Positions 1,819 through 64,000 of a stretch of 64,000 nt of DNA are shown one piece after another (position 1 is the stretch's first letter; each line of letters begins with the position of its first letter). Source of the DNA: a virus (lineage: Duplodnaviria; Caudoviricetes). The stretch spans positions 32,001-96,000 of IMG/VR virus record IMGVR_UViG_3300032321_002024. One strand, written 5' to 3'. Below the pieces are notes generated by a model. The model searched no databases, was not told where the DNA came from, and saw only the letters and a program-made list of their open reading frames with translations. The position numbers and the translations under genes are program-made.

Positions 1819-2085
1819 TTACTTTTTTAAAAAAATTCTAAGTATTTTTTTTATTCTTCTATAATTTTTTGGTGGTGTATAAATGGAAGAATCAACATCT
1901 CTTATATAAACACCTGGGCTTATATACTTATTACCCATTTTTCCTATGTTATTTTGTTGTGTTTCATTATCTATATGAGCATTGGCATACTGAGACATCC
2001 AGTCAGCTTTTGATCCAGTCATACCCATAGAGCCTAAAATATTAGACCACTTTTTCATTATATCTTTCTTACTTGGTTGTTTCAT
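1819..2085 (-). CDS. Chimeric mini-protein: capsid-N-terminus-like + tail-sheath-N-terminus-like segments + RxxKI tag
   Basis: KKWSNILGSMG...WMSQYANAH, then YISPGVYIRDVD (sheath SPGVY motif), then RRIKKILRIF. Confidence 0.55.
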   Translation of the reverse strand: MKQPSKKDIMKKWSNILGSMGMTGSKADWMSQYANAHIDNETQQNNIGKMGNKYISPGVYIRDVDSSIYTPPKNYRRIKKILRIFLKK

Positions 2086-2131
2086 AAAACAAAAAAACTT
2101 TTCTTGTTATAGAAAAGTTTTTATTTATTGT

Positions 2132-2890
2132 TTAAATTTCGTATTTATTCTTTAGTCCATTTTTTGGAACGTCTCTGTGACTAATCTTCCAAAGGTCGTC
2201 TTTTGATAGTTTTACTAACTGTTGAAGAAGATTCAGATTTTTTTGATACTCATTCATATTTGGTTGTTCTCTATTATGAAAAAGATGATAACATCTATAA
2301 TCCATTTGTTTCCAATTTAAAAATTGTTGAACTTTAAGTGAAACAAAATCGTCTTCTGCACCCCAACCAATAAAGTTTTCATTCCATCCGGCAATCTTGT
2401 TTATTGTTTCTCTTCTAAAGATACAAATTCCGCCACAAATTGGAACTTTTTGATGATCAGTTTCTCCTCTACCTGGTCGGTTGATTTGTATAATCTGTTC
2501 TAATTGAAGATTAGCCTCATTTGATTCCAAGTCTACTACTGATTTGTATGGGTTAACCATATCGTGTGTTTCGATTTGTTTTAGGGCATCAATTAATTGA
2601 TTTGGATGCATAATTAAATCAGAGTCTGCAAAAACAATAATATCTGATTTTGCCATTTTAGTTGCATAGTTAAAACTCCAAGATTTGTTATAAGGTTTGT
2701 CTGATTTTAAGAAAAGATGTCTACATCTAAGGCTTAAATGAGAAATTTTTGAGTGAGTATCTTGTTCAACTACGATTACGTCTACTCCCTGGAATCCGTT
2801 AATCCAGTCTAATACTCTTCTAAGATTTTGTAGTCGGTCTGGTTTATGTCTGTAACCGATGATATAAGTGAAAGAATGTCCATTATTCAT
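2132..2890 (-). CDS. GT-A glycosyltransferase (GT2/GT7 galactosyltransferase-like C domain)
   Basis: DSD motif, GWNENFIGWGAEDDF, HLFH. Confidence 0.85.
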   Translation of the reverse strand: MNNGHSFTYIIGYRHKPDRLQNLRRVLDWINGFQGVDVIVVEQDTHSKISHLSLRCRHLFLKSDKPYNKSWSFNYATKMAKSDIIVFADSDLIMHPNQLIDALKQIETHDMVNPYKSVVDLESNEANLQLEQIIQINRPGRGETDHQKVPICGGICIFRRETINKIAGWNENFIGWGAEDDFVSLKVQQFLNWKQMDYRCYHLFHNREQPNMNEYQKNLNLLQQLVKLSKDDLWKISHRDVPKNGLKNKYEI

Positions 2891-2910
2891 TAAAAATAAT
2901 TATTTTTTAT

Positions 2911-3639
2911 TTATACTACTGATATATTGATTTGTTTTGATTCTATGAACTTTTTAACTTCTATTGGTTCATTCTCTTCACCTTTGTAGAATTTAGATAA
3001 TGGTAATATTTTATCAGAGTCTAATGTGTCTACTATTATATCATTATATAAATGTCTTCCAAATTCTAACCATATTTTGTGTTCATAATTTGTTTTGTGT
3101 GTTTTGTGGTATATAATTTCATCTTTTATGTGATATACATTTAGTCTATTTTTTAAGGCACAAATAGGAATCCAGTAATCCCACCAAGGCATTCCAATTA
3201 CATATTTTTCATTTTTAAATAAAGAGGCATATTTTGAGTTAAATATAAAAATATCATATCCGTATATAAACGGATATTTTTCACCATTGTCTAACTCATA
3301 TCTAGTTCCTATAAAAATTCCGTTTATTAGATATCTATTTTTAATATTTATATCTAATTCATCGGTCAAAATTATATCGGAGTTTATTATTGCTGATACT
3401 CCATTTGATACTTTTTCAATGGAATCTAATATAGAGTTTAATTTTATTAGTTTTTTATTTTTGTATAAATATGTATCATCAGTTTCTATAAAATTTACAT
3501 TTTTATAGATATCTTTTATTCTTTCAATCTCTTCTTTTCTATTTACTGAATAGACTTTATATTTTTTAGTCCAAGAAGATATAGCATTTAATTGAGTGTT
3601 ACTGAGATCATTTGGATTTATTGTAGTAAATATCTCCAT
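2911..3639 (-). CDS. Putative glycosyltransferase-like protein
   Basis: INSDII, GYDIF, GMPWWDYW; similar to the C-terminal domain of 5756..7396. Confidence 0.6.
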   Translation of the reverse strand: MEIFTTINPNDLSNTQLNAISSWTKKYKVYSVNRKEEIERIKDIYKNVNFIETDDTYLYKNKKLIKLNSILDSIEKVSNGVSAIINSDIILTDELDINIKNRYLINGIFIGTRYELDNGEKYPFIYGYDIFIFNSKYASLFKNEKYVIGMPWWDYWIPICALKNRLNVYHIKDEIIYHKTHKTNYEHKIWLEFGRHLYNDIIVDTLDSDKILPLSKFYKGEENEPIEVKKFIESKQINISVV

Positions 3640-3641
3640 AA

Positions 3642-3854
3642 TTATTTTAACTTTTTTAAGTCGTTATCTATAGGTAATTGTAAATCAAAGTCATGATTTT
3701 TTGACACAATACTTCCTTCTTTACAGGTTGCAGAATTGCAACAATTATAAAAGTTACAATATGACCATTCAACTTCTTGTTTTTCTGTTAAGTATATAAA
3801 TATTGATTCATCTAAATGTTGTCCGCTTCTTTGAAATGATGATATTATATCCAT
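3642..3854 (-). pseudogene. Short sulfotransferase-like N-terminal fragment
   Basis: SFQRSGQH resembles the PAPS-binding 5'-PSB loop, KNHDF downstream; only 70 aa. Confidence 0.4.
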
Positions 3855-4543
3855 TTTTCTATTTCATTTTTAATTTCATCTGTTAATCCACCGTATGACC
3901 AATATTGTTTACCTATTGGTGGCTCATAAGAGTAACTATCTGTATTTGTGAGTTTATAATTATCTGGTTCATTATAAAATAACCAAGCACCAATTGCGTT
4001 AAATTCTGAAAATTTCTTACTAAACTTATTCATTATAGTATCTTCGATATCATATTCTTCATTGATTTTTTCAATTGTACTTCTATGATAAATTAAAGGC
4101 AATCTTCGCATAAATTCATAATCTAATTCTCTTCCTATAAATTTCTCAGTAACTTCTTTCCAACAAATGGCATCCCCTACTTTTGAGTAATCTGTATATA
4201 ATATTTCAGGTTTATCATCATCTATTAAATTTTGTAAATCTATTTCTTTATTAAAAATTAAATCAGAATCTGAATATAATATAAATTTCGATTTACAATA
4301 TTTATGAGCAGTCATTTTTATAAACTGTTGATATATGTAACCATTACCATATTCATTTACAAAATAAACTTCACAATTTAGTTCGTTTATTAAGTCATAA
4401 TTTAATAATTCTTTTTCTTTTTCGGGTATAATTATTATTATTTTATTATAACCAGTTAGATACTTTTTTATTGATTTTAATGAGTAATATAACCACTCAA
4501 AATCTTTTGCATATGATTTGTAAAATATGTCTATCATGCCCAA
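3845..4543 (-). CDS. Putative glycosyltransferase (GT-A-like)
   Basis: YSDSDLIF DxD motif, GYIYQQFIK, FSEFNAIG. Confidence 0.65.
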   Translation of the reverse strand: MGMIDIFYKSYAKDFEWLYYSLKSIKKYLTGYNKIIIIIPEKEKELLNYDLINELNCEVYFVNEYGNGYIYQQFIKMTAHKYCKSKFILYSDSDLIFNKEIDLQNLIDDDKPEILYTDYSKVGDAICWKEVTEKFIGRELDYEFMRRLPLIYHRSTIEKINEEYDIEDTIMNKFSKKFSEFNAIGAWLFYNEPDNYKLTNTDSYSYEPPIGKQYWSYGGLTDEIKNEIEKWI

Positions 4544-7452: not shown

Positions 7453-7851
7453 TTGAAAAAAATAGGTAGATCTGAAAAAATTGCATTTTCTTCTTTAAAT
7501 GAAGGACTAATCACTGCGAAAATTGATACCGGTGCTTTTAATGCTGCTCTTCATGTAGATGAAGTAAAGATTATAGAATCTGGATTACAAATTAGAATTA
7601 AAAACAATACTTATATTTTTCATAAATGGTCTGAAGTAGAAGTAAAAAGCTCAAATGGTAAGGTTCAAAAGAGATTTGGAGTTAATTTAAAAATTCAATT
7701 AGGTAAAAAGAAGTATAAAATATTTGTTTCTTTGACTAATAGAAAAAGTATGAAGTTTTCACTTCTAATTGGTAGAAGATTTTTACATTCTAATAATTTT
7801 TTGGTAGATGTAACTAAAAAGAATATTTATGATAGACCTAAAGAAATATAA
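7453..7851 (+). CDS. RimK-associated retropepsin-like protease (putative ATP-dependent Zn protease family)
   Basis: AKIDTGA and LLIGRRFL motifs. Confidence 0.8.
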   Translation: MKKIGRSEKIAFSSLNEGLITAKIDTGAFNAALHVDEVKIIESGLQIRIKNNTYIFHKWSEVEVKSSNGKVQKRFGVNLKIQLGKKKYKIFVSLTNRKSMKFSLLIGRRFLHSNNFLVDVTKKNIYDRPKEI

Positions 7852-8362
7852 TTATTTTACCGGTGATAAATCATCAGTAGCTTTTGGTGTCAGTGATATC
7901 GTTAAGTTTTTGGATTTAGCTGGTCACAACTATGTTCTTTTTACTCCACCAAAACCTACTGGTTCAAGTAAAGTTCACGATATTTGTTTGTATCATTATT
8001 TAGATAATAAAATAGAGTTTAATAATATTGATGAGTTTAAAGATAAAATTTTAGATAAATCTAATTTATTTAGAGTTGATTTAATAGTATTTGACTTTTG
8101 GAGTATAAAAAAAATGAATTGGTCTAATTACTTAAACGAAATTGTTAACCTTTCGCAGAATTTTATAATAGTTGCTAAAGAGTTTCAGTATAAAACAACA
8201 GATGATGTTAATGATTTTTTACTTCAAACAGAGTATAAAGAACTACACAAAACTGATAATTGGCTGACTGATAGAATTAATAAAAATACAGCAACAATTG
8301 ATTCACTTAAAAAAGCTTATATAAGAGATAAGAAATTAGAGCATTTATTTGGTGATGAGTAA
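7829..8362 (+). CDS. Hypothetical protein, possibly degenerate RecA-fold, with C-terminal RxxKL tag
   Basis: DLIVFD Walker-B-like strand, no intact Walker A; ends IRDKKLEHLF. Confidence 0.55.
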   Translation: MIDLKKYNYFTGDKSSVAFGVSDIVKFLDLAGHNYVLFTPPKPTGSSKVHDICLYHYLDNKIEFNNIDEFKDKILDKSNLFRVDLIVFDFWSIKKMNWSNYLNEIVNLSQNFIIVAKEFQYKTTDDVNDFLLQTEYKELHKTDNWLTDRINKNTATIDSLKKAYIRDKKLEHLFGDE

Positions 8363-10530: not shown

Positions 10531-10884
10531 ATGAATGATTTTTTTGATAGTTTTAAGGGTAAACCTAAATATGACCATAAAGTCAGAGTAGTTCATTTTA
10601 AGAAAGAACACTTTGATATTTATATTGGTCGCCTTCCAAATGGTAAGTATAATAAATGGGCTTACCCTAAAGAATTGCGTGAGTCTTTTCCAGAGGGAAC
10701 TCCGCGAAAAATAATTGTAGATGCTTATGAAGAGTATTTACTCTCAAATAAAGAATTAATGAATGATTTACACGAACTAAAAGATAAAACACTTGGATGT
10801 TGGTGTAAAAATTTAGGAGGTGGTGGGAAATCTTGCCATGGTGACATTTTAGTTAAATGGGTTAAAAAGAAATGTAATGACTGA
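10531..10884 (+). CDS. DUF4326-like protein
   Basis: DIYIGR...LGCWC...CHGDIL. Confidence 0.8.
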   Translation: MNDFFDSFKGKPKYDHKVRVVHFKKEHFDIYIGRLPNGKYNKWAYPKELRESFPEGTPRKIIVDAYEEYLLSNKELMNDLHELKDKTLGCWCKNLGGGGKSCHGDILVKWVKKKCND

Positions 10885-11221
10885 TTTAGAATTATTAGAA
10901 TGTACTCAAAGTGTTTATGATCTTCTCATAGATGATAATGATATTAGATTGAATAAAAGTTTTAATTCATTTATGGAAAATCCTTCATTTAAGAAAATGA
11001 ATGATACTCTAACGAAATATGGTTTTGGAAATGAATGGAGTGAAAGAGCTGATATGGTTTTATTTACCCAATGTCTTAATGGCTTATATAAAATATATGA
11101 CCAAAATGATTTTAGAAAATTACTAAAATATACTCCAAAAGATTTCTTTTCATCAACAAAATCACATGATTTTTATAGAACAATTTTAAGAGAATTAAAA
11201 TTGAATCTATGCCTGAACTAG
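10877..11221 (+). CDS. Hypothetical protein with C-terminal RxxKL tag
   Basis: Ends LRELKLNLCLN. Confidence 0.65.
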   Translation: MTDLELLECTQSVYDLLIDDNDIRLNKSFNSFMENPSFKKMNDTLTKYGFGNEWSERADMVLFTQCLNGLYKIYDQNDFRKLLKYTPKDFFSSTKSHDFYRTILRELKLNLCLN

Positions 11222-41014: not shown

Positions 41015-41218
41015 GTGAAAAAGTATAAAGTTAAGAGTCTTGTAGTTGATAGTATCAACAATGTATCTTCATATGGTGTAGATATAGAATCCGAACTTAC
41101 TAAAATTTTATCTGAACAAATAGCAAAAGAAATGGATAGAGATATTCTAAGATATTTAGGTGTTGAGCCTGATAGAAATAAACGTAGAATTAATTCCATA
41201 AATAAAATATTCATATGA
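41015..41218 (+). CDS. Mini-protein resembling gp23 major capsid central helix + tag
   Basis: YGVDIESELTKILSEQIAKEMDRDILRYL; ends RRINSINKIF. Confidence 0.6.
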   Translation: MKKYKVKSLVVDSINNVSSYGVDIESELTKILSEQIAKEMDRDILRYLGVEPDRNKRRINSINKIFI

Positions 41219-41784: not shown

Positions 41785-41785
41785 T

Positions 41786-41956
41786 ATGTTTGTCAATCCT
41801 AATAAATTAAATTCTTATCGTAAAGTTTTACGTGGTATTGAAGATAATAATAATGATATTCAAGCAACCTGGACTTTACTTAGATCTATGATAAGAAAAC
41901 AAAAAATCGAAAGAATATATGGAACAAAAAATACAGATAGGAAAGAAAAGTTCTGA
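41786..41956 (+). CDS. Small tagged protein (56 aa, not in ORF track)
   Basis: MFVNPNKLNSYRKVLRGIEDNNNDIQATWTLLRSMIRKQKIERIYG... Confidence 0.55.
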   Translation: MFVNPNKLNSYRKVLRGIEDNNNDIQATWTLLRSMIRKQKIERIYGTKNTDRKEKF

Positions 41957-42191
41957 CTTAGAACCAGGTTATGTTTATGTTCCTTATATCCCAATGACAA
42001 CATCACAAGTTATAGTTGATTATGGTTCTAAAAATATAAGTAGAAAAAGAAAGATTAATAAAATATTTGATTTAGGTTTAGATGTTAAAGATGAATTCTC
42101 ACCAAGTAAATCAATTATGAGTAGATACTCTAAAAAGATAGTGAATAGTAAATATTACGGAACTATAGAAATAAAAAAACCCACTTATTAA
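41919..42191 (+). CDS. Mini-protein resembling gp23 major capsid C-terminus with inserted tag
   Basis: IGKK...EPGYVYVPYIPM...[SRKRKINKIF]...FSPSKSIMSRYSKKIVNSKYYGTI. Confidence 0.65.
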   Translation: MEQKIQIGKKSSDLEPGYVYVPYIPMTTSQVIVDYGSKNISRKRKINKIFDLGLDVKDEFSPSKSIMSRYSKKIVNSKYYGTIEIKKPTY

Positions 42192-49516: not shown

Positions 49517-49546
49517 TATATTTGTATAAATAAATCCACTATGAAA
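49517..49546 (+). promoter_or_regulatory. Bacteroidota-type promoter/leader, identical copy at 18800-18829
   Basis: TATATTTGTATAAATAAATCCACTATGAAA contains the TAnnTTTG -7 element. Confidence 0.65.
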
Positions 49547-49996
49547 GGTCATAAAATAAACACATCTAAAGAAGCTCTTAAATTTATGTTCTCTGGTAAA
49601 TCAGTAGTAACATTCCTAAATACAAAAACTGATAATAGATTTACTTTTAAACTAAAACAAGCTAAAGACTCTAATTTATTCTTTATTAGTGTTCTAACTG
49701 GACCCGAACAATATACTTATCTAGGGACTTGTAGTGAGGGAAGATATAAGCACGGTAAAAAATCGACTATCTCAGAAGATGTTCAATCTGTAAAAGTTTT
49801 TAATTATATGTTAAGAAATCTAATTCAAGATAGTGTCGAAGGCTTTTTAGAGGTTTGGCACGAAGGATTTTGTGGAAAATGTGGTAAACGTTTGACTGTT
49901 CCTTCTTCAATCCTCAGTGGAATTGGACCTGATTGTATTAAAAAACTTTCTAAGTTGGAAAAAAGAGATAAATTTTTAGAATTAATTTTAGCCTAA
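49541..49996 (+). CDS. DUF6011-like Zn-finger protein with C-terminal tag
   Basis: CGKCGKRLTVPSSI..GIGPDC; ends KRDKFLELIL. Confidence 0.75.
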   Translation: MKGHKINTSKEALKFMFSGKSVVTFLNTKTDNRFTFKLKQAKDSNLFFISVLTGPEQYTYLGTCSEGRYKHGKKSTISEDVQSVKVFNYMLRNLIQDSVEGFLEVWHEGFCGKCGKRLTVPSSILSGIGPDCIKKLSKLEKRDKFLELILA

Positions 49997-50457
49997 TGTT
50001 TTCAGTTATTTTTTGTTTTTTACCGTTTTTATTTTTATTTTTTCAATTTTATCTTCTAAAAAAGAGAAGAACATTGGTTTGGGAAATAAAAAAAGGTGAA
50101 ATTTGTTATAACTGTAAAGAAAGTTTAAATATCCCAGAAAAAGATATCTGGGATAGACTTATGAAGTCAGAAGACTTCTCAAAAATATGTATTTCTTGTA
50201 GTAGAGATAGAAAAATATCTTTACTTAAAAAACCTCTTTTTATTTGGAAATACAAATTTCAAAAAGCTATTGTAAGTAATAAATTTAAAATTCACTGGAT
50301 ATTTTTACCAATTATTTTTTTCTTTATTATCTTAGATGTTATTCTTATTTTCTGTGGTATTAGATTAGGATTATGGTTGGTTTATGGTTCTTTGAATATA
50401 ATTTGGTGGTTAATAATAACTTATAAAACATATTATACAACAATGAAAAAAAAATAA
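49996..50457 (+). CDS. Membrane protein with Zn finger and internal tag
   Basis: CYNC...CISC-SRDRKISLL; TM segments. Confidence 0.65.
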   Translation: MFSVIFCFLPFLFLFFQFYLLKKRRTLVWEIKKGEICYNCKESLNIPEKDIWDRLMKSEDFSKICISCSRDRKISLLKKPLFIWKYKFQKAIVSNKFKIHWIFLPIIFFFIILDVILIFCGIRLGLWLVYGSLNIIWWLIITYKTYYTTMKKK

Positions 50458-53900: not shown

Positions 53901-55133
53901 TTATCCGAAAATATCATCTGCGTCAGCCGCATCTGTAAATCCGTTTGTATCATCTTCTTCGTCTTCGCCAATTACATTATTGAATTGTTTTTCAACTTCT
54001 TCAATTTCATCTAATGATTTGAATCTAAAATAATCATTTACGATTGGTGCCATTTTTTCTAAAACTTCTTGAGTAAATATCTCAGGTGAAAATAATTGTT
54101 TTGTTGTAACTGATTTATTTAAGTGATTGATATACCATCTGATACCACCTGGAATAAAAGTCATTTCTCCTGTTTTTTTATCAACTTCCATTTTACCTTT
54201 AGCGATTCCAATTTGTTCAAAATATTCTGGACGACAGAAAGCGTCTAATCCAGTGTAAGGGTTCATACCATTTGCAAAAGAAATATCAAATCTAATTTTC
54301 TTAGGTTTTGCTAAACGGTTCTTTTGTGTTTTGAATAAAACTGAAATACCAGAACCTCCTAAATCCATATCATCTTCTTCGCCAGTTTTTAATTTTGATT
54401 TGGTCATAAATCCAATTACTGATGCTGAATATAATAATGCTAATCCTCCCTTCATGACTGCTTGTGGAAAAAGATCCATAGTTAAGTAGGTATGGTTACA
54501 GACTATCATAGGGATGTCTAAATAACCAAGGTCATTATTGATAGATCTAAACATAGAGCCAATTGCCTTAGCTTTAGTCATATCTTGTTTGATATCACCT
54601 TTTAATAAATCAGCTTTTTCTTTATTAGAAGCCATTTGACCTAATGAGTCAAGAACAATCATTAATTTAGGTAGTTCATATCCAGCTAATTTTTGTTCTT
54701 TTAATTCATCAACTAACTGAGTTAATGTTATGTTGATATCTTCAACTTTATTCGATCTAACTAATCTAAATTTTTCTAAATCGTTGCTTACTCCAAATTT
54801 TGGAAGGTCTTCTAAATCTACCGCTTGTTCTGTATCAATATAGATAACTGAATATCCTGCTTTTTGTGCATTTTTAGCACAAGAGTATGCTAAGAAAGAT
54901 TTACCTGCTCCAGACTCTCCAGCGAATACACTAATTCTATTAGTTGCTACTCCACCTCCTAACAATCTACCTGACATTGCGGCGTCTACTATATAAACAC
55001 CTGTAGATATAAACTTTTTTTCTTTAATTTCTTTTTCAACTTGAATCGGAACTGACTTTGCTATATTGTCCAAAATTGAACCAATCTTAGAAAACTCAAA
55101 CCTTTTTGTTTCTTTTGGTTGTTGTTTTGCCAT
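53901..55133 (-). CDS. uvsX: UvsX/RecA-like recombinase
   Basis: AGESGAGKS, IDTEQA, LDSLG, DMTKAK, NHTY, KNR. Confidence 0.92.
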   Translation of the reverse strand: MAKQQPKETKRFEFSKIGSILDNIAKSVPIQVEKEIKEKKFISTGVYIVDAAMSGRLLGGGVATNRISVFAGESGAGKSFLAYSCAKNAQKAGYSVIYIDTEQAVDLEDLPKFGVSNDLEKFRLVRSNKVEDINITLTQLVDELKEQKLAGYELPKLMIVLDSLGQMASNKEKADLLKGDIKQDMTKAKAIGSMFRSINNDLGYLDIPMIVCNHTYLTMDLFPQAVMKGGLALLYSASVIGFMTKSKLKTGEEDDMDLGGSGISVLFKTQKNRLAKPKKIRFDISFANGMNPYTGLDAFCRPEYFEQIGIAKGKMEVDKKTGEMTFIPGGIRWYINHLNKSVTTKQLFSPEIFTQEVLEKMAPIVNDYFRFKSLDEIEEVEKQFNNVIGEDEEDDTNGFTDAADADDIFG

Positions 55134-56835: not shown

Positions 56836-57360
56836 TTATTTTCCTGGCATTTCCAAATACTGGTCTAGTAATTGTCTTGTTTCTTCATCATTCTCATCAA
56901 AAAGAACTTCTTTATTTTTAAGAGTGATTTTATTTTTAGTAATTAATTCTTGTAAAGCAGATTCATCTGAAAAAAGATTCATTTCATCATCTGAGATATG
57001 AACGCTTTTTGTGTGTGATTCTTTAATAAATTTTGAAAATTTTTCTAATTTCATACCTGATTCAGATTTTTCTGGATTAGCTTTTAGGATTCTAATTAAA
57101 CCTTCTAATTCATCTGTGTCAATAAAGTCAGAAGCTTTAACAGTAGTTCCTTCGATTTCATGAGAAATTACATCAACAGCACTCATTAATATTTCCATAA
57201 CTTGTGGGTCAGAACATCTGTCATGTAAATCCATAACAGTTCCACCGTTTAACTTTGAACTTAGTCTTTTGTTAGATTTTACTAAACTTAAGATTGTTTC
57301 TAAAGTTTTAATTACTGGTTCGTTATCGTCAAAGTTTTCAAATAATTTTAAATGTTTCAT
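56836..57360 (-). CDS. Signal-bearing protein; C-half paralogous to 56320..56697
   Basis: MKHLKLFENF; internal MKLEKFSKFIKES. Confidence 0.65.
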   Translation of the reverse strand: MKHLKLFENFDDNEPVIKTLETILSLVKSNKRLSSKLNGGTVMDLHDRCSDPQVMEILMSAVDVISHEIEGTTVKASDFIDTDELEGLIRILKANPEKSESGMKLEKFSKFIKESHTKSVHISDDEMNLFSDESALQELITKNKITLKNKEVLFDENDEETRQLLDQYLEMPGK

Positions 57361-57393: not shown

Positions 57394-58266
57394 TTAAAAA
57401 CAGGAAAGATATCTTTCTCCTCTATCACATAGAATAGTGATGATATTACCTTCAACCTCTGGATATTTTTCTAAGAATTTTTCTGATGCTAAGATATTGG
57501 CTCCAGATGAGATACCAACAAATAAACCTTGTTCTTTTGCTAATCTTTTTGCTCTTTCTTTAGCTTCTTCAGTTGATATAATAATAATATCATCAACTTC
57601 TTTTAAGTTAACCATAAATTTAGAACCATCTCCAATTCCTTGAATTCCGTGAAGTCCTGGTTCACCACCAGACATAACAGGAGATTCTGCTGGTTCAACA
57701 GCTACAACTTTCATATTAGGATGATACATTTTAAGAATTCTAGAAGTTCCCATAAGTGTTCCTCCAGTTCCGGTTCCATCAATAAACGCTGATATCTTAT
57801 TTGTGTGTTGGTGTAAAATTTCAACACCGGTTCCTTTAAGATGGGCTTCTATATTTAGTGGATTATGAAATTGATTTGGATTAAAATATCCATTTTCTTT
57901 AGCTAATTTATCTCTTAAAGCAATTGCGTCGTCAAATTTACCATCTGGAACTTCAATAAGTTCTGCTCCGTAAAGTCTTAACATTTGTTTACGTTCTTCA
58001 CTCATATTAGATGGCATAATAATTATACACTTATATCCTCTTTCTGATGCTAAAAAGGCAAATGCTATTCCAGAGTTTCCAGATGTTGCTTCTATGATTG
58101 TATCTCCTTTTTTTATCAATCCTTTTTCTTCGGCATCATTGATTATATAAGTTGCCATTCTGTCTTTTATTGATCCACTTGGATTTTGACCTTCAAATTT
58201 TGCGAAGATTCTTTCTGAGATTTGTAAAAGTGGAGTTTGTCCAACTTCTTGTGATAATTTTTGCAT
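57394..58266 (-). CDS. cysK: Cysteine synthase (O-acetylserine sulfhydrylase)
   Basis: NPSGSIKDR, EATSGNSG, NQF, GTGTGGT, HGIQGIG, GISSGA, DRGERYLS. Confidence 0.93.
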   Translation of the reverse strand: MQKLSQEVGQTPLLQISERIFAKFEGQNPSGSIKDRMATYIINDAEEKGLIKKGDTIIEATSGNSGIAFAFLASERGYKCIIIMPSNMSEERKQMLRLYGAELIEVPDGKFDDAIALRDKLAKENGYFNPNQFHNPLNIEAHLKGTGVEILHQHTNKISAFIDGTGTGGTLMGTSRILKMYHPNMKVVAVEPAESPVMSGGEPGLHGIQGIGDGSKFMVNLKEVDDIIIISTEEAKERAKRLAKEQGLFVGISSGANILASEKFLEKYPEVEGNIITILCDRGERYLSCF

Positions 58267-58328
58267 TAAAAGAGATAATTTTTATGTTTTATATATTGTA
58301 TCTAAATAAGTTTAACTATATTTGTAAT

Positions 58329-58928
58329 ATGAATATATGGTTTACATCAGACAGTCATTACGGACATACAAATATAGCGGGTCCTAAAGTTTCTCGCTGG
58401 CAAAGAGGTTATCGTGATTTTAATAGTGTTTGGGAAATGAATCAATCTCTTATTGATTGTATTAACAAATATGTTAAAGAAGATGATATACTTTATCACT
58501 TAGGTGATTGGAGTTTTGGTGGAATTCACAATATCAAATTATTTAGAGATTCGATTATTTGTCAAAATATACATCTTATTTTAGGAAACCACGATGAACA
58601 TATTGTAGACAAAGAAGTAAAATTTCACGATTCATCATTTAATCCAATTGAACTATTTTCTTCTGTTCAGGATGTTCTACATTTAGAAATAGGTAAAACA
58701 AAAATATTCCTATCACATTATTCACATCGTGTTTGGAATGGAAGTCATAAAGGAGTAATTCATCTTTATGGTCATAGCCATGGTTCTATTCCAGACTTTG
58801 GTCGTTCAATGGATGTTGGAGTTGATGTTGCTTATAGAATGTTTGGAGAATATCGACCATTTAACATAGGAGATATTACCAGAATTATGGATAAAAGAGA
58901 AATTCATCAAATTGACCATCATGCATAA
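58329..58928 (+). CDS. Calcineurin-like metallophosphoesterase
   Basis: SDSHYGH, LGD, GNHD, YGHSH; ATG 58329 after TATATTTG. Confidence 0.9.
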   Translation: MNIWFTSDSHYGHTNIAGPKVSRWQRGYRDFNSVWEMNQSLIDCINKYVKEDDILYHLGDWSFGGIHNIKLFRDSIICQNIHLILGNHDEHIVDKEVKFHDSSFNPIELFSSVQDVLHLEIGKTKIFLSHYSHRVWNGSHKGVIHLYGHSHGSIPDFGRSMDVGVDVAYRMFGEYRPFNIGDITRIMDKREIHQIDHHA

Positions 58929-59100
58929 ATTAAGAAATGAAATGATGAATCTGAAAATTATGATTAATTCCTCTTATGGCATGAGTGGGGTTAGTCTGAG
59001 TCTTTATGATGAAATGTTAAAGAAAAAGAATAAGTTTTTCAAAATACAAAATAGAGTTTTTAAAGTTAAAAGAGTATTCAATGATAATAAAAACAAATGA
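58921..59100 (+). CDS. Mini-protein with PolB motif B + tag
   Basis: LKIMINSSYG; ends NRVFKVKRVF. Confidence 0.6.
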   Translation: MHKLRNEMMNLKIMINSSYGMSGVSLSLYDEMLKKKNKFFKIQNRVFKVKRVFNDNKNK

Positions 59101-59354
59101 CAGAAGTTAATTTATATTTAGAGAATAAAAGTAAAAAATTAAAAACCTATCATTTTGAAGAGGATGTTACTAATATTGATAATGCAAGAGTTTTACTTTT
59201 TAAATATGTGAATTCTTTTTATTTGAATTCAAAGTATAAAATAATAGTTTCAAATAGATTTATTAATGATACTCAATGTTCAAAAATCAGTGTGATTTTT
59301 GATAAAAATACTGAACTAAATAGAGAATTTTTACTAAAAGATTTATTAAAATGA
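59097..59354 (+). CDS. Small tagged hypothetical protein
   Basis: Ends NREFLLKDLLK. Confidence 0.6.
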   Translation: MTEVNLYLENKSKKLKTYHFEEDVTNIDNARVLLFKYVNSFYLNSKYKIIVSNRFINDTQCSKISVIFDKNTELNREFLLKDLLK

Positions 59355-60075: not shown

Positions 60076-60453
60076 ATGACAAAACAAGAATTTATACTTT
60101 TTATTAAAATTTTCGGCTTTCAAGAGACTTATCAATCTGATGGATCAGGTCCATTAAACTCCTTCTCTATGGCTACTGACTCTACAAGTCAAAAATACTC
60201 ACCTGCTTATTTAGATAAATTACAAATTTCCATAAATGATGAAAGAGGATCATTTCAACTTAGTTTATCACAAATGGGTTCTCATGTGATGGTTGGTAAA
60301 AACTTTGGCAATTTCAGTTTAAATACATTTGGAGATAAAAATGATTTTCAGTTAGAATTATTTTTGAGTTTTATTTTAGGTAGTTTCAAAGAAAAACCAA
60401 AACACATTTTGCAATTTATGAGAGATAGAAAAATTGAAAATATTCTACAATAA
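60076..60453 (+). CDS. Tagged hypothetical protein
   Basis: Ends MRDRKIENILQ. Confidence 0.65.
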   Translation: MTKQEFILFIKIFGFQETYQSDGSGPLNSFSMATDSTSQKYSPAYLDKLQISINDERGSFQLSLSQMGSHVMVGKNFGNFSLNTFGDKNDFQLELFLSFILGSFKEKPKHILQFMRDRKIENILQ

Positions 60454-60842
60454 TGTTTTTATATAAATTAAAAAAAGTATTAAGAGAAAGAAAAAAAGAT
60501 ATCATTCAATCTACTTTATCATTTTCTTTAATGGCATCTGTTATTTCGTTATTTGTTTTTATGTTTATAAATAATGAAGATTTTTCTAAATCGGATAAAA
60601 GACAAATGGGTGTTACTTCCGCTATTCTAACGTCAATAAATTTAACAATTATTTATTTTGTTGATTATTTTTTAGGATATAATATAATAGTTACTATTTT
60701 ATTAGGTTATTTTTCAAGTTTTCTTTTCTTTTTTATACCTTGTTTAATTTTTATTTTGTATTTTGAGGTAACTGAATTAGAACTTGATAAAAGTGAGACC
60801 AGAGATGCTAAGTTAAATAGTCTTTTTAGAAATTTATTCTGA
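60453..60842 (+). CDS. Tagged membrane protein
   Basis: Three hydrophobic segments; ends TRDAKLNSLF. Confidence 0.65.
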   Translation: MFLYKLKKVLRERKKDIIQSTLSFSLMASVISLFVFMFINNEDFSKSDKRQMGVTSAILTSINLTIIYFVDYFLGYNIIVTILLGYFSSFLFFFIPCLIFILYFEVTELELDKSETRDAKLNSLFRNLF

Positions 60843-61377: not shown

Positions 61378-61725
61378 ATGTTTCAGTCTGAGAAAACTCA
61401 AGAGTTAGATTTAAATAATCCTATATTTGTATTCTATTTAAACGTAGAAAACAAATCACGTCAATCAGCTCAAGAATATATAGAAGTCACTAAAAAACAC
61501 TTTGACGTTTATAAGAACGCCACAATGTGGTTCGTGGCCGCAAAAAAAGATGAAGTTGTTTGTATTTATGATGGTTGGGGTAGAGTAAGAGATTCCGAAA
61601 TAAAAGACTTAATAGAAGAAATAAATACTAAAATAGAAATAATGTCTAATTCTCATTCGTTTGATGATTTTAAGATTAATGTAAGAGATTGGAGAATAAG
61701 TAAATTAGTAGATGAAAAAGAATAA
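61378..61725 (+). CDS. Tagged hypothetical protein
   Basis: Ends VRDWRISKLV. Confidence 0.65.
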   Translation: MFQSEKTQELDLNNPIFVFYLNVENKSRQSAQEYIEVTKKHFDVYKNATMWFVAAKKDEVVCIYDGWGRVRDSEIKDLIEEINTKIEIMSNSHSFDDFKINVRDWRISKLVDEKE

Positions 61726-62071
61726 GTGGGATATAATAGGTAAAGAAATTGATAAAGATATCAACTCGGAATATGATAGTTGGTTTTATTGGTGGTATGA
61801 TGGCGGGGATTATTTTGACCACGATTATGGTCAATATTATACTTATGATTATTCTGAGCCTGTTTATAGAGAATATTTTTCAAAAAGAGGTAAATGGAGT
61901 AAAGACAGACATTTAGTTGGGAACTATATTGATATGATGTCAATTTATTCACCACAGGTATTGAGACAAAAGAAAATTGATTATCTATTAGGAATTGATA
62001 AATGGGAAGTGACGAGTAAACCAACAATTTTGGATTACATAAATTATAAAAAAGGAAATGAAAGAAATTGA
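61712..62071 (+). CDS. Tyr/Asp-rich tagged hypothetical protein
   Basis: LRQKKIDYLLG. Confidence 0.6.
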   Translation: MKKNKWDIIGKEIDKDINSEYDSWFYWWYDGGDYFDHDYGQYYTYDYSEPVYREYFSKRGKWSKDRHLVGNYIDMMSIYSPQVLRQKKIDYLLGIDKWEVTSKPTILDYINYKKGNERN

Positions 62072-62885
62072 AATTTATGAAGGTTTTTGGACAGTAAATG
62101 ATATAAAATCTAATGCAGAAAAAATATTTATTTTTGGTGATAATGATTTAAGAATTGGAACAGGTGGTCAAGCTGTAATTAGAAATTGTAGTAACACATT
62201 TGGTATAAGAACGAAAAAGAAACCATCTAACTCAGGTGATTCTTTTTATTCGGATGATGATTATGATTTCAATACTCAAAAAATATTACAAGATATTTTA
62301 CAAATAAAATATTTACAAGTTTCTGGAAAACAGCTTGTATTTTCTAACGGTGGATACGGAACAGGTTTAGCTTCACTAAAGTCAAAGGCTCCTAAAACTT
62401 TTGATTTTTTAGTTAATTGTTTAAGGAACTTTTTTCAATTTGACAATGAAAGTGGTAAGTCTTGGAAATATATTCCTTCTTTTGATGAGTTAAATTTTGC
62501 AAAGTATCTAAATATATCAAATGAGTCAGTTCTTTTACCAATAAATAATAGTTATTTTAGAAATGATTGTCTTGAAAAGGGAATTTTTAACTATTTTGAT
62601 TTAATTAAATCGGAAAATAAAGTGGCTTTTACATCAGAAACTAAATATGAACCGGGTCAAATACTTAATTTAAACGTTTTTAGTAATGAATATTTAGTAG
62701 TAAAAGTTTCACAGTCTTATAATTGTGATTTTATATCTAAAGAATATTGGTCTATGTTTGAAGGTTTTAATAACGACTTTGTTGAAGATAAAGAAATTGA
62801 TGACTTATTTCAAACACAATTTGAATTTATTTGCACTCTTAATCCAGATGGAACTATGAAATTTAAAGAAAACATTTTTAATTAA
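62058..62885 (+). CDS. Hypothetical protein with macro-like N domain
   Basis: FIFGDND..IGTGGQAVIR...FGIRTK...GYGTGLA. Confidence 0.6.
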   Translation: MKEIEIYEGFWTVNDIKSNAEKIFIFGDNDLRIGTGGQAVIRNCSNTFGIRTKKKPSNSGDSFYSDDDYDFNTQKILQDILQIKYLQVSGKQLVFSNGGYGTGLASLKSKAPKTFDFLVNCLRNFFQFDNESGKSWKYIPSFDELNFAKYLNISNESVLLPINNSYFRNDCLEKGIFNYFDLIKSENKVAFTSETKYEPGQILNLNVFSNEYLVVKVSQSYNCDFISKEYWSMFEGFNNDFVEDKEIDDLFQTQFEFICTLNPDGTMKFKENIFN

Positions 62886-63307
62886 TGGAAAATATTGAAC
62901 AAATAATGAAAGAAGAAGGTGACTTCTTTGAATGGACTTATACCGCAAAAAATGGTTTAGAAGTAGATTGTTTTATAAGAAGAAATAATTCTTTAGCCTT
63001 TTGTGGTTATGTTGTTATAACTTCAGATAATAAATTATTTGGATTAGACTATGATAATATCTACTCAAAAGTCAATATCTCTGTTCATGGTGGTTTAACT
63101 TATTCAGATGAAGGCGAAGGAGGATGGATTATTGGTTTTGATTGCTCTCATTTGGGTGACTTTTGTCCAGCTTTTTCTTATGATGGAATTTATAGAACAA
63201 AAGAATTTGTTATTTCAGAGTGTGAGAGTTTAGCAGAATCTGTTTCTAAATTTAGTGGTATAATACAAAGATTAAAAAATATTGATTCAGTTATTGGTGA
63301 TAATTAA
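62885..63307 (+). CDS. Conserved phage protein with C-terminal tag
   Basis: CGYV, VHGGLTY, GFDCSH; ends QRLKNIDSVIG. Confidence 0.7.
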   Translation: MENIEQIMKEEGDFFEWTYTAKNGLEVDCFIRRNNSLAFCGYVVITSDNKLFGLDYDNIYSKVNISVHGGLTYSDEGEGGWIIGFDCSHLGDFCPAFSYDGIYRTKEFVISECESLAESVSKFSGIIQRLKNIDSVIGDN

Positions 63308-63340
63308 AAAAATTTGTATATTTGTTAAAATATAAAAGAT

Positions 63341-63478
63341 ATGGACGCCACTACAACAATTAATGATTATTTAGAAAACCCCGCTTACGACTTTGAATCA
63401 CTTTCTGATTTAATTTCAATGGCTCAAGATTACCAATACCAACAATTGATGTCCGAACTTCAAGAAGAAGGTTTATAA
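63341..63478 (+). CDS. Small acidic protein (45 aa, not in ORF track)
   Basis: MDATTTINDYLENPAYDFESLSDLISMAQDYQYQQLMSELQEEGL after TATATTTG promoter. Confidence 0.55.
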   Translation: MDATTTINDYLENPAYDFESLSDLISMAQDYQYQQLMSELQEEGL

Positions 63479-63486
63479 TACTATAC

Positions 63487-63557
63487 GGTTGGGTGACCGA
63501 GATCTTAGGTGTCACTACGCAATAGTGAATACGGTAGTTAGTTACTATCCCCAACCT
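63487..63557 (+). tRNA. Non-canonical tRNA-Cys(GCA)-like RNA
   Basis: Acceptor GGTTGGG/CCCAACC, D stem ACC/GGT, anticodon stem TCACT/AGTGA with loop ACGCAAT, T stem GGTAG/CTATC, discriminator T. Confidence 0.7.
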
Positions 63558-63571
63558 CTAATTTATTTTTT

Positions 63572-64000
63572 ATGTCAATTTATATAAGTAGACAAGACTA
63601 CCAAAGAGACTTATTATCAGAATTTAGAGATTTCAAATTGAAGTTAATTCAATCTGATATAGAATTTTCAGTCAGTAAAGAAGTAATAAAAAAATATCAT
63701 ACAGACTTAACTTTTATTAGAAATAATTTTAAAAACGATATAATCTCAGGGTCAATCACTCTCAGTTTATTAGGTCTTATTAATAGAGTGGCTTCTGATA
63801 TTGATATTCTTATTAAAGATAAGAACCGATATTCTGGATATATCAATAGCACATATGTTGGTGATGAATCCAGTAATATGGATAATCGACTTGGTTATAT
63901 CAATTTTGAATATAAAAAGAACTTCTTTTCAAAAACCAGAGTTTATGAGGTTGATTTCTTTTTAAATTTGGATGCTAAATATATTGAATTTGATTTTGAA
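63572..64000 (+). CDS. Nucleotidyltransferase-like protein (partial)
   Basis: SGSITLSLLG...SDIDIL...VDFF; FRDFKLKLI tag-like motif near N-terminus; runs off window. Confidence 0.6.
   Translation, partial: MSIYISRQDYQRDLLSEFRDFKLKLIQSDIEFSVSKEVIKKYHTDLTFIRNNFKNDIISGSITLSLLGLINRVASDIDILIKDKNRYSGYINSTYVGDESSNMDNRLGYINFEYKKNFFSKTRVYEVDFFLNLDAKYIEFDFE

What the first reader, a model, noticed from the sequence alone, without database searches (positions are those of the whole stretch)
1819..63660. Window-wide R-x-x-K-(I/L)-x-x-(I/L) helical tag on about 16 unrelated proteins
Seen at or near C-termini: RRIKKILRIF (1819), IRDKKLEHLF (7829), LRELKLNLCL (10877), RRINSINKIF (41015), IRKQKIERIY (41786), KRDKFLELIL (49541), NRVFKVKRVF (58921), NREFLLKDLL (59097), MRDRKIENIL (60076), TRDAKLNSLF (60453), VRDWRISKLV (61378), QRLKNIDSVI (62885). 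Seen internally: SRKRKINKIF (41919), SRDRKISLL (49996), LRQKKIDYLL (61712), FRDFKLKLI (63572). It sits on soluble, membrane and Zn-finger proteins alike, is absent from the termini of the core enzymes, and was not noticed on proteins with the N-terminal capsid-targeting-like signal. Inference: a portable amphipathic docking or sorting signal (to a hub protein, protease, oligomeric scaffold or compartment), i.e. a second protein-addressing code in this phage.
Basis: partly seen in the sequence, partly recalled or inferred. Interest (0 to 1): 0.85.

Follow-up and report, generated by a model that had tools for sequence, protein, structure and literature searches.

The report
Shared C-terminal tag in huge phages
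About one in twelve proteins of this giant phage of Bacteroidota (up to one in six in its 635-kb relatives), otherwise unrelated and mostly of unknown function, end in the same two-turn helix. Selection keeps it strictly, so it looks like an address label read by one still unidentified partner, and I found no paper describing such a label in phages.

Summary
Confirmed and extended.

- **Own genome (262.6 kb contig):** 24 of 290 genes have the Arg exactly 10-13 residues from the end, against about one hit per position elsewhere. Wrong-frame ORFs give a flat profile, and Lys never substitutes for Arg.
- **Carriers:** no similarity outside the tag, none longer than 231 aa here, nearly all ORFans.
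- **Relatives:** the tag marks 7-16% of genes (37/517, 17/243, and 126+24 of 927 in the 635-kb LR745206.1) and occurs in 27 of 30 further clade contigs. It is absent from Tenacibaculum phage pT24 (same GC) and from LR756508.1.
- **Selection:** in one carrier family all 116 orthologues (42-99% identity) keep it, with invariant Arg. In a model of that carrier it forms the end of a terminal helix.
- **Gene class:** C-tag genes avoid the late-type promoter box (6%, against 27% of other genes and 62% of giant genes). They never carry the clade's N-terminal tag (0 overlaps, 8.6 expected).

Best reading: a docking or address helix, read in trans, on non-late accessory proteins. This scan has noted similar tags with other sequences in other huge phages.

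The parts
1822..1857 (-). C-tag (Arg to last residue) of the 88-aa ORF 1819-2085
   Evidence: Arg 12 residues from the end. The G001 homologue keeps the motif with a longer tail.
8324..8359 (+). C-tag of the 177-aa ORF 7829-8362 (RecA-like core plus terminal helix)
   Evidence: Arg at d=12. All 116 orthologues keep the tag, and Arg has entropy 0. AF2 model pLDDT 86.8; helix 157-174 contains the tag at 166-174. Fold matches mostly end at residue 159-168.
11189..11218 (+). Near-canonical C-tag of the 114-aa ORF 10877-11221 (Cys at the second hydrophobic position)
   Evidence: Matrix score 10.7, Arg at d=10.
41186..41215 (+). C-tag of the 67-aa ORF 41015-41218, a mini-gene holding a capsid-protein (Gp23) segment
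   Evidence: PF07068 positions 165-195, E 5e-6. Conserved as a free-standing mini-ORF with the tag in G001, G002 and LR745206.1.
49964..49993 (+). C-tag of the 151-aa ORF 49541-49996 (DUF6011 / phrog_20259)
   Evidence: The family profiles end before the tag. The tag is identical in G001 and G002.
59053..59097 (+). Weaker tag-like end of the 62-aa ORF 58912-59100 (Arg at d=15)
   Evidence: Matrix score 3.6. The G001 homologue has the same layout.
59322..59351 (+). C-tag of the 85-aa ORF 59097-59354
   Evidence: d=10. Kept in G001.
60421..60450 (+). C-tag of the 125-aa ORF 60076-60453
   Evidence: Best matrix score in the window, 23.0; d=10.
60801..60839 (+). C-tag of the 129-aa ORF 60453-60842
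   Evidence: d=13. The G001 orthologue is 47% identical overall and keeps the tag through motif-preserving changes.
61684..61722 (+). C-tag of the 115-aa ORF 61378-61725
   Evidence: d=13. Kept in G001.
63269..63304 (+). C-tag of the 140-aa ORF 62885-63307 (MazG-like, phrog_2164)
   Evidence: d=12. The phrog match ends at residue 122 and the tag starts at 129.
41894..41953 (+). Tag-like motif in the doubtful 56-aa ORF 41786-41956 (Arg at d=20)
   Evidence: Matrix score 14.1. My gene caller did not call this ORF.
42042..42068 (+). Internal copy of the motif in the 90-aa ORF 41919-42191 (second Gp23-like mini-gene)
   Evidence: Score 15.4, 49 residues from the end. Gp23 positions 303-335 lie upstream of it.
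50203..50229 (+). Internal motif copy in ORF 49996-50457
   Evidence: Score 9.6, d=84. May be a chance match.
61964..61990 (+). Internal motif copy in ORF 61712-62071
   Evidence: Score 12.8, d=35.
63626..63652 (+). Motif copy near the N-terminus of the ORF starting at 63572 (runs off the window)
   Evidence: Score 11.8.

Best explanation
The tag is a short linear docking motif. It is a two-turn amphipathic helix at the extreme C-terminus that puts one invariant arginine and three aliphatic or aromatic side chains (positions 1, 5, 8, 9) on one face, with preferred Asp/Glu at 2, Lys at 4 and Asn/Asp/Glu at 6.

I infer that this face fits a groove with an acidic residue on ONE common partner specific to this phage clade, and that the partner needs the helix to lie next to the free C-terminus. 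The tag has been added to, and is kept on, small accessory proteins encoded in tightly packed arrays of non-late genes. It is one of two mutually exclusive address codes; the other is an N-terminal tag on genes with late-type promoters.

**Shown:** existence, position rule, selection at the peptide level, clade range, helix, gene class, and exclusivity with the N-tag.

**Inferred:** a single reader acting in trans, and binding of a helix in a groove.

**Unknown:** My split of the outcome:
- recruitment or sorting to a common platform or place in the infected cell, with a reader that is not a clamp: about 0.45;
- hand-over to a Clp-type protease for turnover: 0.2;
- sliding clamp: 0.12;
- head packaging: 0.06;
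- tag-to-tag or N-tag/C-tag pairing: 0.05;
- other: the rest.
For: - **Position rule and enrichment:**
- **De novo recovery:**
- **Peptide level, not DNA level:**
- **No paralogy:**. Of the 100 longest carriers in LR745206.1, 95 have no Pfam domain.
- **Arg is required:** the Lys variant is flat. Without Arg, position 1 shows only background residues.
- **Purifying selection on exactly the motif positions:** 116 of 116 orthologues keep the tag. Entropy is 0-0.4 at R, D, K, K, 0.6-1.0 at the hydrophobic positions and 2.2-2.9 at the free positions. 15 of the 16 G000 carriers that have a homologue in G001 or G002 keep the tag.
- **Gained on lineage-specific genes:** more than 20 G001 carriers have no G000 homologue. 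Known family profiles end before the tag.
- **Helix:** AF2 helix 157-174, pLDDT 74-83 over the tag.
- **Clade-specific:** present in G000, G001, G002, G014, LR745206.1 and LR756502.1, with 93 probe hits against 5 control hits in 30 further contigs. Absent from pT24 and LR756508.1.
- **Non-late gene class:** late-type box upstream of 13 of 213 C-tag genes, 368 of 1369 other genes, 45 of 75 N-tag genes and 48 of 77 giant genes (Fisher p 2.5e-13). The box precedes the capsid, scaffold-like, portal and head-completion genes but not polymerase or helicase genes.
- **Exclusive with the N-tag:** 0 against 8.6 expected.
Against: - No reader was found, so 'one common partner' remains an inference from the uniformity of the tag.
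- In the only model, the tag continues a longer helix of the domain rather than following a flexible linker. I could not see whether its hydrophobic face is free or packed on the body.
- The 'late promoter' reading of the AATATATA box rests on which genes carry it, not on expression data.
- All gene calls come from my own simple caller.
Confidence: 0.55

Rival explanations
1. Degron or adaptor-docking peptide for a Clp protease. Tagged early or middle proteins are delivered to phage ClpP, working with the phage's N-domain-less ClpC-like unfoldase or a host unfoldase, and are cleared in a timed way.
For: - The tag must lie within 0-5 residues of the free C-terminus, as terminal degrons do.
- A catalytic reader would explain the very large number of clients.
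- The better-sampled tag-positive genomes G000, G001, G014, LR745206.1 and LR756502.1 all encode ClpP. None was found in G002 (54% complete, 6 carriers), and pT24 has none.
- G000, G001 and LR745206.1 (LR756502.1 by tblastn) encode a 701-710 aa ClpC-type Hsp100. It has D1, a UVR-type middle motif, D2 and a V-G-F loop at the expected ClpP-docking place, no Clp_N domain and an acidic disordered N-terminus.
- Removing the N-domain of S. aureus ClpC destabilises its resting state and allows ClpP binding. In a hexamer-locked mutant it also allows degradation of GFP-ssrA (PMC12583610).
- The ORF just upstream of the ClpC-like gene has a conserved tag-like motif in three genomes.
Against: - The ClpC-like gene is neither sufficient nor, apparently, necessary. 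LR756508.1 has an N-domain-less homologue (53% identical) with an I-G-F loop, plus a ClpP-family gene, yet no tag. G014 (90% complete) has 17 carriers and no ClpC-like gene, even by tblastn.
- Helical periodicity, an invariant Arg and polar residues after the motif are unlike ssrA-type ends.
- In the model the tag is part of a stable helix with almost no unstructured tail to start unfolding from.
Confidence: 0.2
2. Sliding-clamp client tail. The tag docks proteins on the phage's (unrecognised) clamp, as the C-terminal tails of T4 gp43, gp33 and gp55 dock on gp45.
For: - The core [IL]-[DNE]-x-[IL]-[LF] next to the C-terminus has the pattern of the LDFL motif at the C-termini of gp33 and gp55 (PMC9690074).
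- A gp44-type clamp loader is encoded in G001 and G002 (Gp44_lid domain).
- The C-terminal piece of the split PolB ends in a stretch that fits R-x3-V-x2-I-F, at d=13 in LR745206.1 and d=17 in G001. The chance of such a fit in a given tail is about 0.4%.
Against: - At the non-regex positions the PolB tail scores -8.8, like random body matches (median -6.05) and unlike true tags (median +6.2). About three chance hits are expected per genome of that size (my estimate from residue frequencies).
- No clamp was found: PF02916 gave nothing, and the ORFs beside the loader have no Pfam or PHROG clamp match. The 427-aa neighbour folds poorly and looks helical or coiled-coil, not beta-rich.
- The gp55-like ORF lacks the tag.
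- 95 of 100 carriers have no nucleic-acid-related or any other domain.
- pT24 also has a clamp loader but no tag.
Confidence: 0.12
3. Head-packaging signal: a C-terminal counterpart of the T4 capsid targeting sequence or of encapsulin cargo-loading peptides, loading small proteins into the prohead for ejection.
For: [quoted passage not shown]
- Two carriers are mini-genes made of capsid-protein segments.
- Two carriers lie a few kb from the head genes in G001 and G002.
Against: - Only 6% of C-tag genes have the late-type box that precedes the head genes.
- 150 different cargo species in one head is implausible.
- The clade has a separate N-terminal tag on late-box genes that fits this role better, and the two tags never coincide.
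Confidence: 0.06
4. No separate reader. The tags bind each other, or bind the N-terminal tags, to co-assemble carriers; or the tag is simply a common helix cap of small proteins.
For: - Both tags are short amphipathic helices with mixed charges.
- They occur in the same clade and on disjoint protein sets.
Against: - Nine residues are too few for a stable coiled coil.
- A generic helix cap would not need an invariant Arg, a fixed distance to the end or clade specificity.
Confidence: 0.05
5. Artefact or signal at the nucleic-acid level: a by-product of K/I/L-rich composition, a diverged paralogue family, a promoter, terminator or recombination box, or a recoding or translational-coupling signal.
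For: - The genome is 28% GC with Lys/Ile/Leu-rich proteins.
- Many carriers overlap the next gene's start.
Against: - Shuffles, wrong-frame ORFs and the GC-matched pT24 show no excess.
- Third codon positions carry little information.
- There is no similarity outside the tag.
- Overlap with the next gene occurs in 10 of 22 carriers against 53 of 192 other genes. Several carriers are followed by gaps, convergent genes or hairpins.
Confidence: 0.01

Closest known systems
Capsid targeting sequence (CTS) of T-even phage internal proteins (PMC3012670)
   Same: A short conserved terminal peptide is the only thing shared by a diverse, fast-evolving set of small accessory proteins of a T4-related phage, and it addresses them to one partner.
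   Different: The CTS is N-terminal, is used by a handful of proteins, and loads them on the scaffolding core of the prohead. This tag is C-terminal, sits on 7-16% of all genes, and its genes lack the late-type promoter box. The clade's separate N-terminal tag is the better CTS analogue.
Sliding-clamp client motifs: LDFL at the C-termini of T4 gp33 and gp55, and QL(S/D)LF of bacterial beta-clamp partners (PMC9690074)
   Same: A hydrophobic-acidic-x-hydrophobic-hydrophobic core at the very C-terminus of unrelated proteins, read by one hub pocket. Small phage proteins are among the clients.
   Different: An invariant Arg four residues upstream and a preferred Lys are not part of those motifs. 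The clients here are ORFans, not DNA or RNA enzymes. No clamp was recognised. The polymerase tail fits only loosely.
C-terminal degrons and adaptor tethers of AAA+ proteases: ssrA tag, MuA-type ends, SspB XB peptide (own knowledge; ClpC data from PMC12583610)
   Same: A terminal position close to the free carboxyl end, a portable signal, many possible clients, and Clp genes encoded by the phages.
   Different: The tag is helical with charged conserved positions and polar ends. Clp genes do not track the tag: they are present in a tag-less phage, and the ClpC-like gene is missing from a tag-positive one.
Peroxisomal PTS1 and encapsulin cargo-loading peptides (own knowledge)
   Same: Uncleaved C-terminal address peptides that sort many unrelated proteins through one receptor or shell pocket.
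   Different: There is no sequence likeness, and no compartment or receptor is known here.

Membership tests
T4-type sliding-clamp client tail | Hydrophobic L-D-F-L-type core at the extreme C-terminus | tested here: met
   The core [IL]-[NDE]-x-[IL]-[LF] lies 0-5 residues from the end. The motif definition comes from PMC9690074. This is a match of pattern only.
T4-type sliding-clamp client tail | Carried by the phage's own DNA polymerase and late-transcription factors | tested here: inconclusive
   The PolB C-piece fits the regex (d=13 and d=17) but scores like random matches at the other positions. The gp55-like 121-aa ORF lacks the tag.
T4-type sliding-clamp client tail | A clamp (gp45, PCNA or beta type) encoded alongside the clamp loader | tested here: inconclusive
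   A gp44-like loader is present. PF02916 gave no match. Neighbouring ORFs have no clamp match. The fold of the 427-aa neighbour was poor and helical.
T4-type sliding-clamp client tail | Clients are DNA or RNA transaction proteins | tested here: not met
   95 of 100 carriers have no Pfam domain. The DNA_pol_B and ClpP hits are probable chance matches.
T4 capsid targeting sequence | N-terminal position | tested here: not met
   Only 2 hits in the first 25 residues, against 24 at the C-terminal position.
T4 capsid targeting sequence | Shared by otherwise unrelated small proteins | tested here: met
T4 capsid targeting sequence | Expressed with the head genes (late) | tested here: not met
   The late-type box lies upstream of 6% of C-tag genes, against 60% of N-tag genes and 62% of giant genes. 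Promoter class is inferred, not measured.
T4 capsid targeting sequence | Incorporation into the prohead core and removal by the prohead protease | not testable with these tools
   This needs virion proteomics.
C-terminal degron of an AAA+ protease | Lies at or within a few residues of the free C-terminus | tested here: met
   Tail lengths 0-5: 15, 46, 32, 12, 11 and 10 genes in LR745206.1.
C-terminal degron of an AAA+ protease | Unstructured, mostly non-polar terminal residues (ssrA type) | tested here: not met
   The tag is helical with polar or charged residues after the motif. Only the L-G-[ILV]-end variant finishes non-polar.
C-terminal degron of an AAA+ protease | Cognate protease or unfoldase co-occurs with the tag | tested here: inconclusive
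   ClpP occurs in G000, G001, G014, LR745206.1 and LR756502.1 (none in the 54%-complete G002), but also in tag-less LR756508.1. The ClpC-like gene is absent from tag-positive G014 and present in tag-less LR756508.1.
C-terminal degron of an AAA+ protease | Tag shortens protein half-life | not testable with these tools
   This needs an experiment.
Paralogous protein family sharing a C-terminal domain | Sequence similarity outside the motif | tested here: not met
   No carrier-to-carrier BLASTP hit at E<1 once the tag is removed. There is no conservation upstream of position -3.

The most novel reading that the evidence does not exclude
The largest known phages (the Mahaphage-type clade of Bacteroidota phages, up to 642 kb) run their own two-code protein-addressing system. 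An N-terminal tag marks late, probably virion-bound proteins. A C-terminal R-x3-hydrophobic-x2-hydrophobic-hydrophobic helix marks up to a sixth of the proteome, namely the fast-evolving non-late accessory proteins. The C-terminal tag is read by a dedicated, still unannotated phage receptor that sorts, concentrates or times these proteins in the infected cell. That would be a virus-encoded analogue of cellular sorting signals.
Probability: 0.35. Interest if true: 0.9.

Novelty: new variant of a known kind. Interest (0 to 1): 0.8.

Why it matters
**A common handle on phage dark matter.** Huge phages carry hundreds of small genes of unknown function. If 7-16% of them share one address label, that part of the dark matter gains a common handle: one partner to find, and one peptide to use as bait, reporter or knock-out target. 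It would show that very large phages organise their proteome with linear sorting codes, an N-terminal and a C-terminal one that never coincide, much as cells do.

**Practical uses.**
- The tag gives a simple classifier for accessory (non-late) genes in metagenomic huge-phage contigs.
- It gives a clade marker: a 27-nt degenerate probe gave 93 hits against 5 control hits.

**Testability.** The idea can be tested with a peptide of 10-13 residues.

Tried and rejected
1. **DNA-level box.** Rejected: third codon positions are uninformative.
2. **Paralogy.** Rejected.
3. **Recoding or coupling signal.** This was prompted by start/stop overlaps and by 'fragment' carriers. Overlap is not significantly enriched.
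4. **Genes in pieces.** ORFs 40617-42191 sum to about 525 codons, the size of a capsid protein. However, 41215-41784 is a real 2OG-Fe(II) oxygenase, and relatives have a full capsid gene plus the mini-genes.
5. **ORF 58152-58928 as a polymerase piece.** It is a metallophosphatase. The 62-aa 'motif B' ORF has no Pfam hit.
6. **PolB C-piece and ClpP as carriers.** Both are probable chance regex matches.
7. **Phage ClpC-like gene as the specific reader.** It is neither sufficient (LR756508.1) nor necessary (G014).
8. **The 427-aa ORF beside the clamp loader.** This is the most conserved clade-specific protein (83%) and I considered it as a clamp. It has more than 1700 homologues, all unnamed. The AF2 model has pLDDT 44 and is helical, and there is no PDB sequence match.
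9. **gp45 Pfam model, Clp_N and ClpX zinc finger.** No matches.
10. **Subtractive gene content** (present in tag-positive genomes, absent from pT24 and LR756508.1). 193 candidates remain, too many to be useful.
11. **The 137-aa ORF upstream of the ClpC-like gene.** No Pfam family, and the ESM Atlas neighbours were uninformative.
12. **Single-protein searches of IMG/VR with two carriers.** These gave 0 and 2 loci.
13. **Host-type versus phage-type promoter labels per gene.** They did not sort the carriers until the classes were tested statistically.
14. **Literature.** Five searches found no description of such a tag. The paper describing the 634-735 kb genomes does not mention Clp or proteases.

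Full report
**What the window is.** The window is bases 32001-96000 of a single 262,603-bp virus contig with 27-32% GC. Its RNR large subunit is 83% identical to that of the 642-kb uncultured phage LR756502.1 and about 50% identical to that of Tenacibaculum phage pT24. LR745206.1 (634,780 bp) and LR756502.1 (642,428 bp) match in length the 634-kb and 642-kb genomes of the Mahaphage clade, whose phages are predicted to replicate in Bacteroidetes (PMC7162821). The contig is about 84% complete. It lacks the head module, the clamp loader and the C-terminal polymerase piece that relatives have. I called 290 genes with a simple codon-usage caller and used the same caller on all the relatives.

**The observation.** The quoted coordinates are the starts of the carrier ORFs; the peptides lie at their C-terminal ends. 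The literal motif R..K[IL]..[IL] occurs 12 times in the last 25 residues of the 290 proteins, against 0.6-0.9 in shuffles, with no excess in protein bodies (7 against 5.5).

The anatomy is much sharper than 'at or near C-termini'. For R-x3-[ILV]-x2-[ILV]-[FYLIVM], the Arg lies 10, 11, 12 or 13 residues from the end in 9, 7, 4 and 4 genes, never 9, and in 0-1 genes per position further in. 1904 wrong-frame ORFs of the same AT-rich DNA give a flat profile. Replacing Arg by Lys abolishes the excess. The N-terminal 25 residues have only 2 hits. Where the hydrophobic core is present without the Arg, position 1 shows only background residues.

A second ending, R-x2-K-[IL]-x2-L-G-[ILV]-end, adds a few more carriers. 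Nine are canonical, one is near-canonical, two have longer tails and four are internal.

**Protein level, not DNA level, and not paralogy.** In the DNA aligned on the Arg codon, the information sits in codon positions 1-2. The hydrophobic positions use ATA, ATT, TTA and CTA interchangeably. With the tag removed, no two carriers match at BLASTP E<1. Carriers are 59-177 aa long in this contig, and no protein of 400 aa or more has the tag.

Few carriers have a known family. One has DUF6011/phrog_20259 and one is MazG-like (phrog_2164); in both, the family match ends before the tag. Two are mini-genes holding a segment of the Gp23 capsid protein. The other carriers tested had no Pfam or PHROG match.

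**Range.** The same pile-up is present in several relatives:
- the 436-kb relative G001 (37 of 517 genes) and G002 (6 of 131);
- G014 (17 of 243);
- LR745206.1, most strikingly: 126 of 927 genes with tail lengths of 0-5 residues (15, 46, 32, 12, 11, 10), plus 24 with the L-G-[ILV] ending, which is about 16% of its genes.

An unbiased scan of gapped residue triplets puts the motif far ahead of everything else there (p about 1e-72). The same scan recovers it in this contig (about 1e-10). It finds only generic Lys-rich tails in pT24 and nothing significant in LR756508.1.

A 27-nt degenerate DNA probe for R-[DE]-x-K-[IL]-x2-[IL]-[LF] was calibrated locally: 9, 11, 4 and 43 hits in tag-positive genomes against 0-2.4 in shuffles, and 1 hit in pT24. 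Applied more widely, it gives 45 hits against 1 control hit in LR756502.1 and 2 against 1 in LR756508.1. It gives 93 hits against 5 control hits over 30 further contigs chosen only through their capsid protein, with 27 of the 30 positive.

pT24 has the same GC (28.7%) and 286 genes, but only one hit in the zone. Composition therefore cannot explain the motif.

**Selection.** Of the 16 G000 carriers that have a homologue in G001 or G002, 15 keep the tag at 42-91% overall identity, through motif-preserving substitutions. More than 20 G001 carriers have no homologue in this contig. Apart from the capsid-like mini-genes, carriers have no pT24 homologues.

For the 177-aa carrier at 7829-8362, all 116 full-length environmental orthologues (42-99% identical) have the tag. 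Arg has entropy 0. The next Asp, Lys and Lys have 0.08-0.38. The three hydrophobic positions have 0.55-0.98 and change only among I, L and F. The free positions and the residues after the motif have 2.2-2.9, among the most variable in the protein.

**Structure.** An AF2 model of that family is confident (pLDDT 86.8, pTM 0.83). It shows an alpha/beta core and a terminal helix spanning residues 157-174, and the tag (166-174) forms its last two turns. The core resembles RecA/Rad51-type domains (Z about 10-10.8 at 7-10% identity). Most of these matches end at residue 159-168, before or at the start of the tag. The conserved positions 1, 5, 8 and 9 fall on one face of a helix (direct reading of the spacing).

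**Which genes carry it.** A phage-specific box (AATATATA and close variants) is the strongest upstream word in this genome. It lies 28-44 nt upstream of the capsid, scaffold-like, portal and head-completion genes of G001. It does not precede the polymerase pieces, the helicases or the Clp genes, so I read it as a late-type promoter; that is an inference.

Over three genomes the box precedes 48 of 77 genes of 700 aa or more, 45 of 75 N-tag genes, 368 of 1369 other genes, and only 13 of 213 C-tag genes (Fisher p 2.5e-13). C-tag genes sit inside tight arrays, with a median upstream gap of -1 to 11 nt.

The N-terminal tag, M-[KR]-x-[LIV]-[KR]-x-[FY]-[ED]-x-[FY], is itself real. It occurs on 16, 33, 7 and 26 proteins in four clade genomes, against 0 in pT24 and 1 in LR756508.1. 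It never shares a protein with the C-tag (0 against 8.6 expected; Poisson P about 2e-4, my calculation from the counts).

*Sliding clamp.* The tag core has the pattern of the LDFL motif at the C-termini of T4 gp33 and gp55 (PMC9690074). A gp44-like loader exists. The PolB C-piece fits the regex. Against this, the PolB tail scores like random matches at the other positions. No clamp was recognisable. Carriers are not DNA enzymes. pT24 has a loader but no tag.

*Clp.* The clade encodes ClpP homologues and an N-domain-less ClpC-type unfoldase with a V-G-F loop. Published work shows that removing the ClpC N-domain destabilises its resting state, allows ClpP binding and, in a hexamer-locked mutant, permits degradation of an ssrA-tagged substrate (PMC12583610). 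However, tag-less LR756508.1 also has an N-domain-less ClpC-like gene and a ClpP-family gene. Tag-positive G014 (90% complete) has ClpP but no ClpC-like gene. The Clp link is therefore only a weak correlation.

*Head packaging.* This is disfavoured by the promoter data, by the number of carriers and by the existence of the N-tag.

*Subtractive gene content.* It leaves 193 candidates.

**Conclusion.** The reading as a 'portable amphipathic docking or sorting signal, a second addressing code' is supported as far as sequence analysis can go. The destination is open. I rank them as follows: docking on an unidentified clade-specific partner that recruits or sorts non-late accessory proteins, then Clp-linked turnover, then a clamp, then packaging.

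I found no description of such a tag in five literature searches. Earlier notes of this scan report shared terminal tags with other sequences in other huge phages. If those hold, proteome-scale terminal tags may be a general habit of very large phages. These notes are leads, not evidence for this case.

Noticed in passing
window 13729-14379(+), 22029-22556(-), 22624-23640(+), 29763-30092(+), 56836-57360(-); 16 genes in the whole contig: A second, N-terminal tag M-[KR]-x-[LIV]-[KR]-x-[FY]-[ED]-x-[FY] on otherwise different proteins of 89-538 aa. It is confined to the same clade (0 in pT24, 1 in LR756508.1), is mostly preceded by the late-type box, and never occurs together with the C-tag. It is a candidate head-targeting signal.
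   Followed up: partly
whole contig; for example upstream of window 13729, 16389, 27142 and 35176: The box AATATATA / TATATATA, 10-14 or 25-37 nt upstream of start codons, is the strongest upstream word (54 of 128 intergenic regions). It precedes head genes and giant genes but not replication genes. It is probably the late promoter of this clade.
   Followed up: partly
window 41015-41218 and 41919-42191; G000 134247-134447(-) (L001): Free-standing mini-genes encoding segments of the Gp23-type capsid protein (profile positions 165-195, 303-335 and 126-171). Two have the terminal C-tag and one has an internal copy. They are conserved as mini-ORFs in G001, G002, LR745206.1 and LR756502.1, all of which also have a full-length capsid gene. 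Their function is unknown.
   Followed up: partly
G000 223845-225974 (L090:1845-3974); G000 179559-180125 (L091:1559-2125): A phage-encoded ClpC-type Hsp100 without an N-domain. It has about 45 disordered residues with an acidic run, a V-G-F loop, and is over 80% identical among clade genomes. There is also a truncated ClpP-like gene; relatives have 1-3 ClpP genes.
   Followed up: yes
G000 223408-223821 (L090:1408-1821): The 131-137 aa ORF just upstream of the ClpC-like gene is conserved in three genomes and has a tag-like R-[DE]-[EN]-I-I-[DN]-[DE]-[IL]-L-N motif 18-20 residues from its end. It has no known family.
   Followed up: partly
ClpP genes: LR745206.1 123556-124221(-), G001 326476-327138, G014 186098-186781: The ClpP proteins' own C-terminal ends ([RK]-Y-G-M-I-D-E-I-[LIV] plus 4 residues) have the same Arg/hydrophobic/acidic spacing and the same distance to the end as the tag, but they differ at the preferred positions 2-4. 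Whether this is coincidence or a clue was not resolved.
   Followed up: no
window 14809-16335; G001 203521-204942 and 317542-318975: The family-B DNA polymerase is split. The N-terminal piece (exonuclease plus the start of the polymerase domain) is in the window. In G001 the C-terminal piece lies about 113 kb away. pT24 also has two pieces.
   Followed up: partly
G001 255184-256467 (L036:15184-16467): A 427-aa ORF beside the gp44-like clamp loader is the most conserved clade-specific protein (83% between G001 and LR745206.1). It has more than 1700 environmental homologues, all unnamed. The AF2 model is poor, helical with a long C-terminal coiled coil.
   Followed up: partly
window 7829-8362: This carrier has a RecA/Rad51-like alpha/beta core (Z about 10), but the family consensus shows no canonical GxxxxGK[ST] P-loop.
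   Followed up: partly
window 53901-55133(-): A 410-aa protein ends in an acidic tail finishing D-D-I-F-G, like SSB or gp32-type tails. A 406-aa G001 protein that may be its counterpart (not checked) is homologous to the pT24 gene next to the clamp loader.
   Followed up: no
G000 255849-256925(-), flanked by carriers at 255282-255812 and 256927-257241: A phage-encoded DnaJ-like protein (its N-terminus has the J-domain signature) with a C-tag carrier on each side.
   Followed up: no
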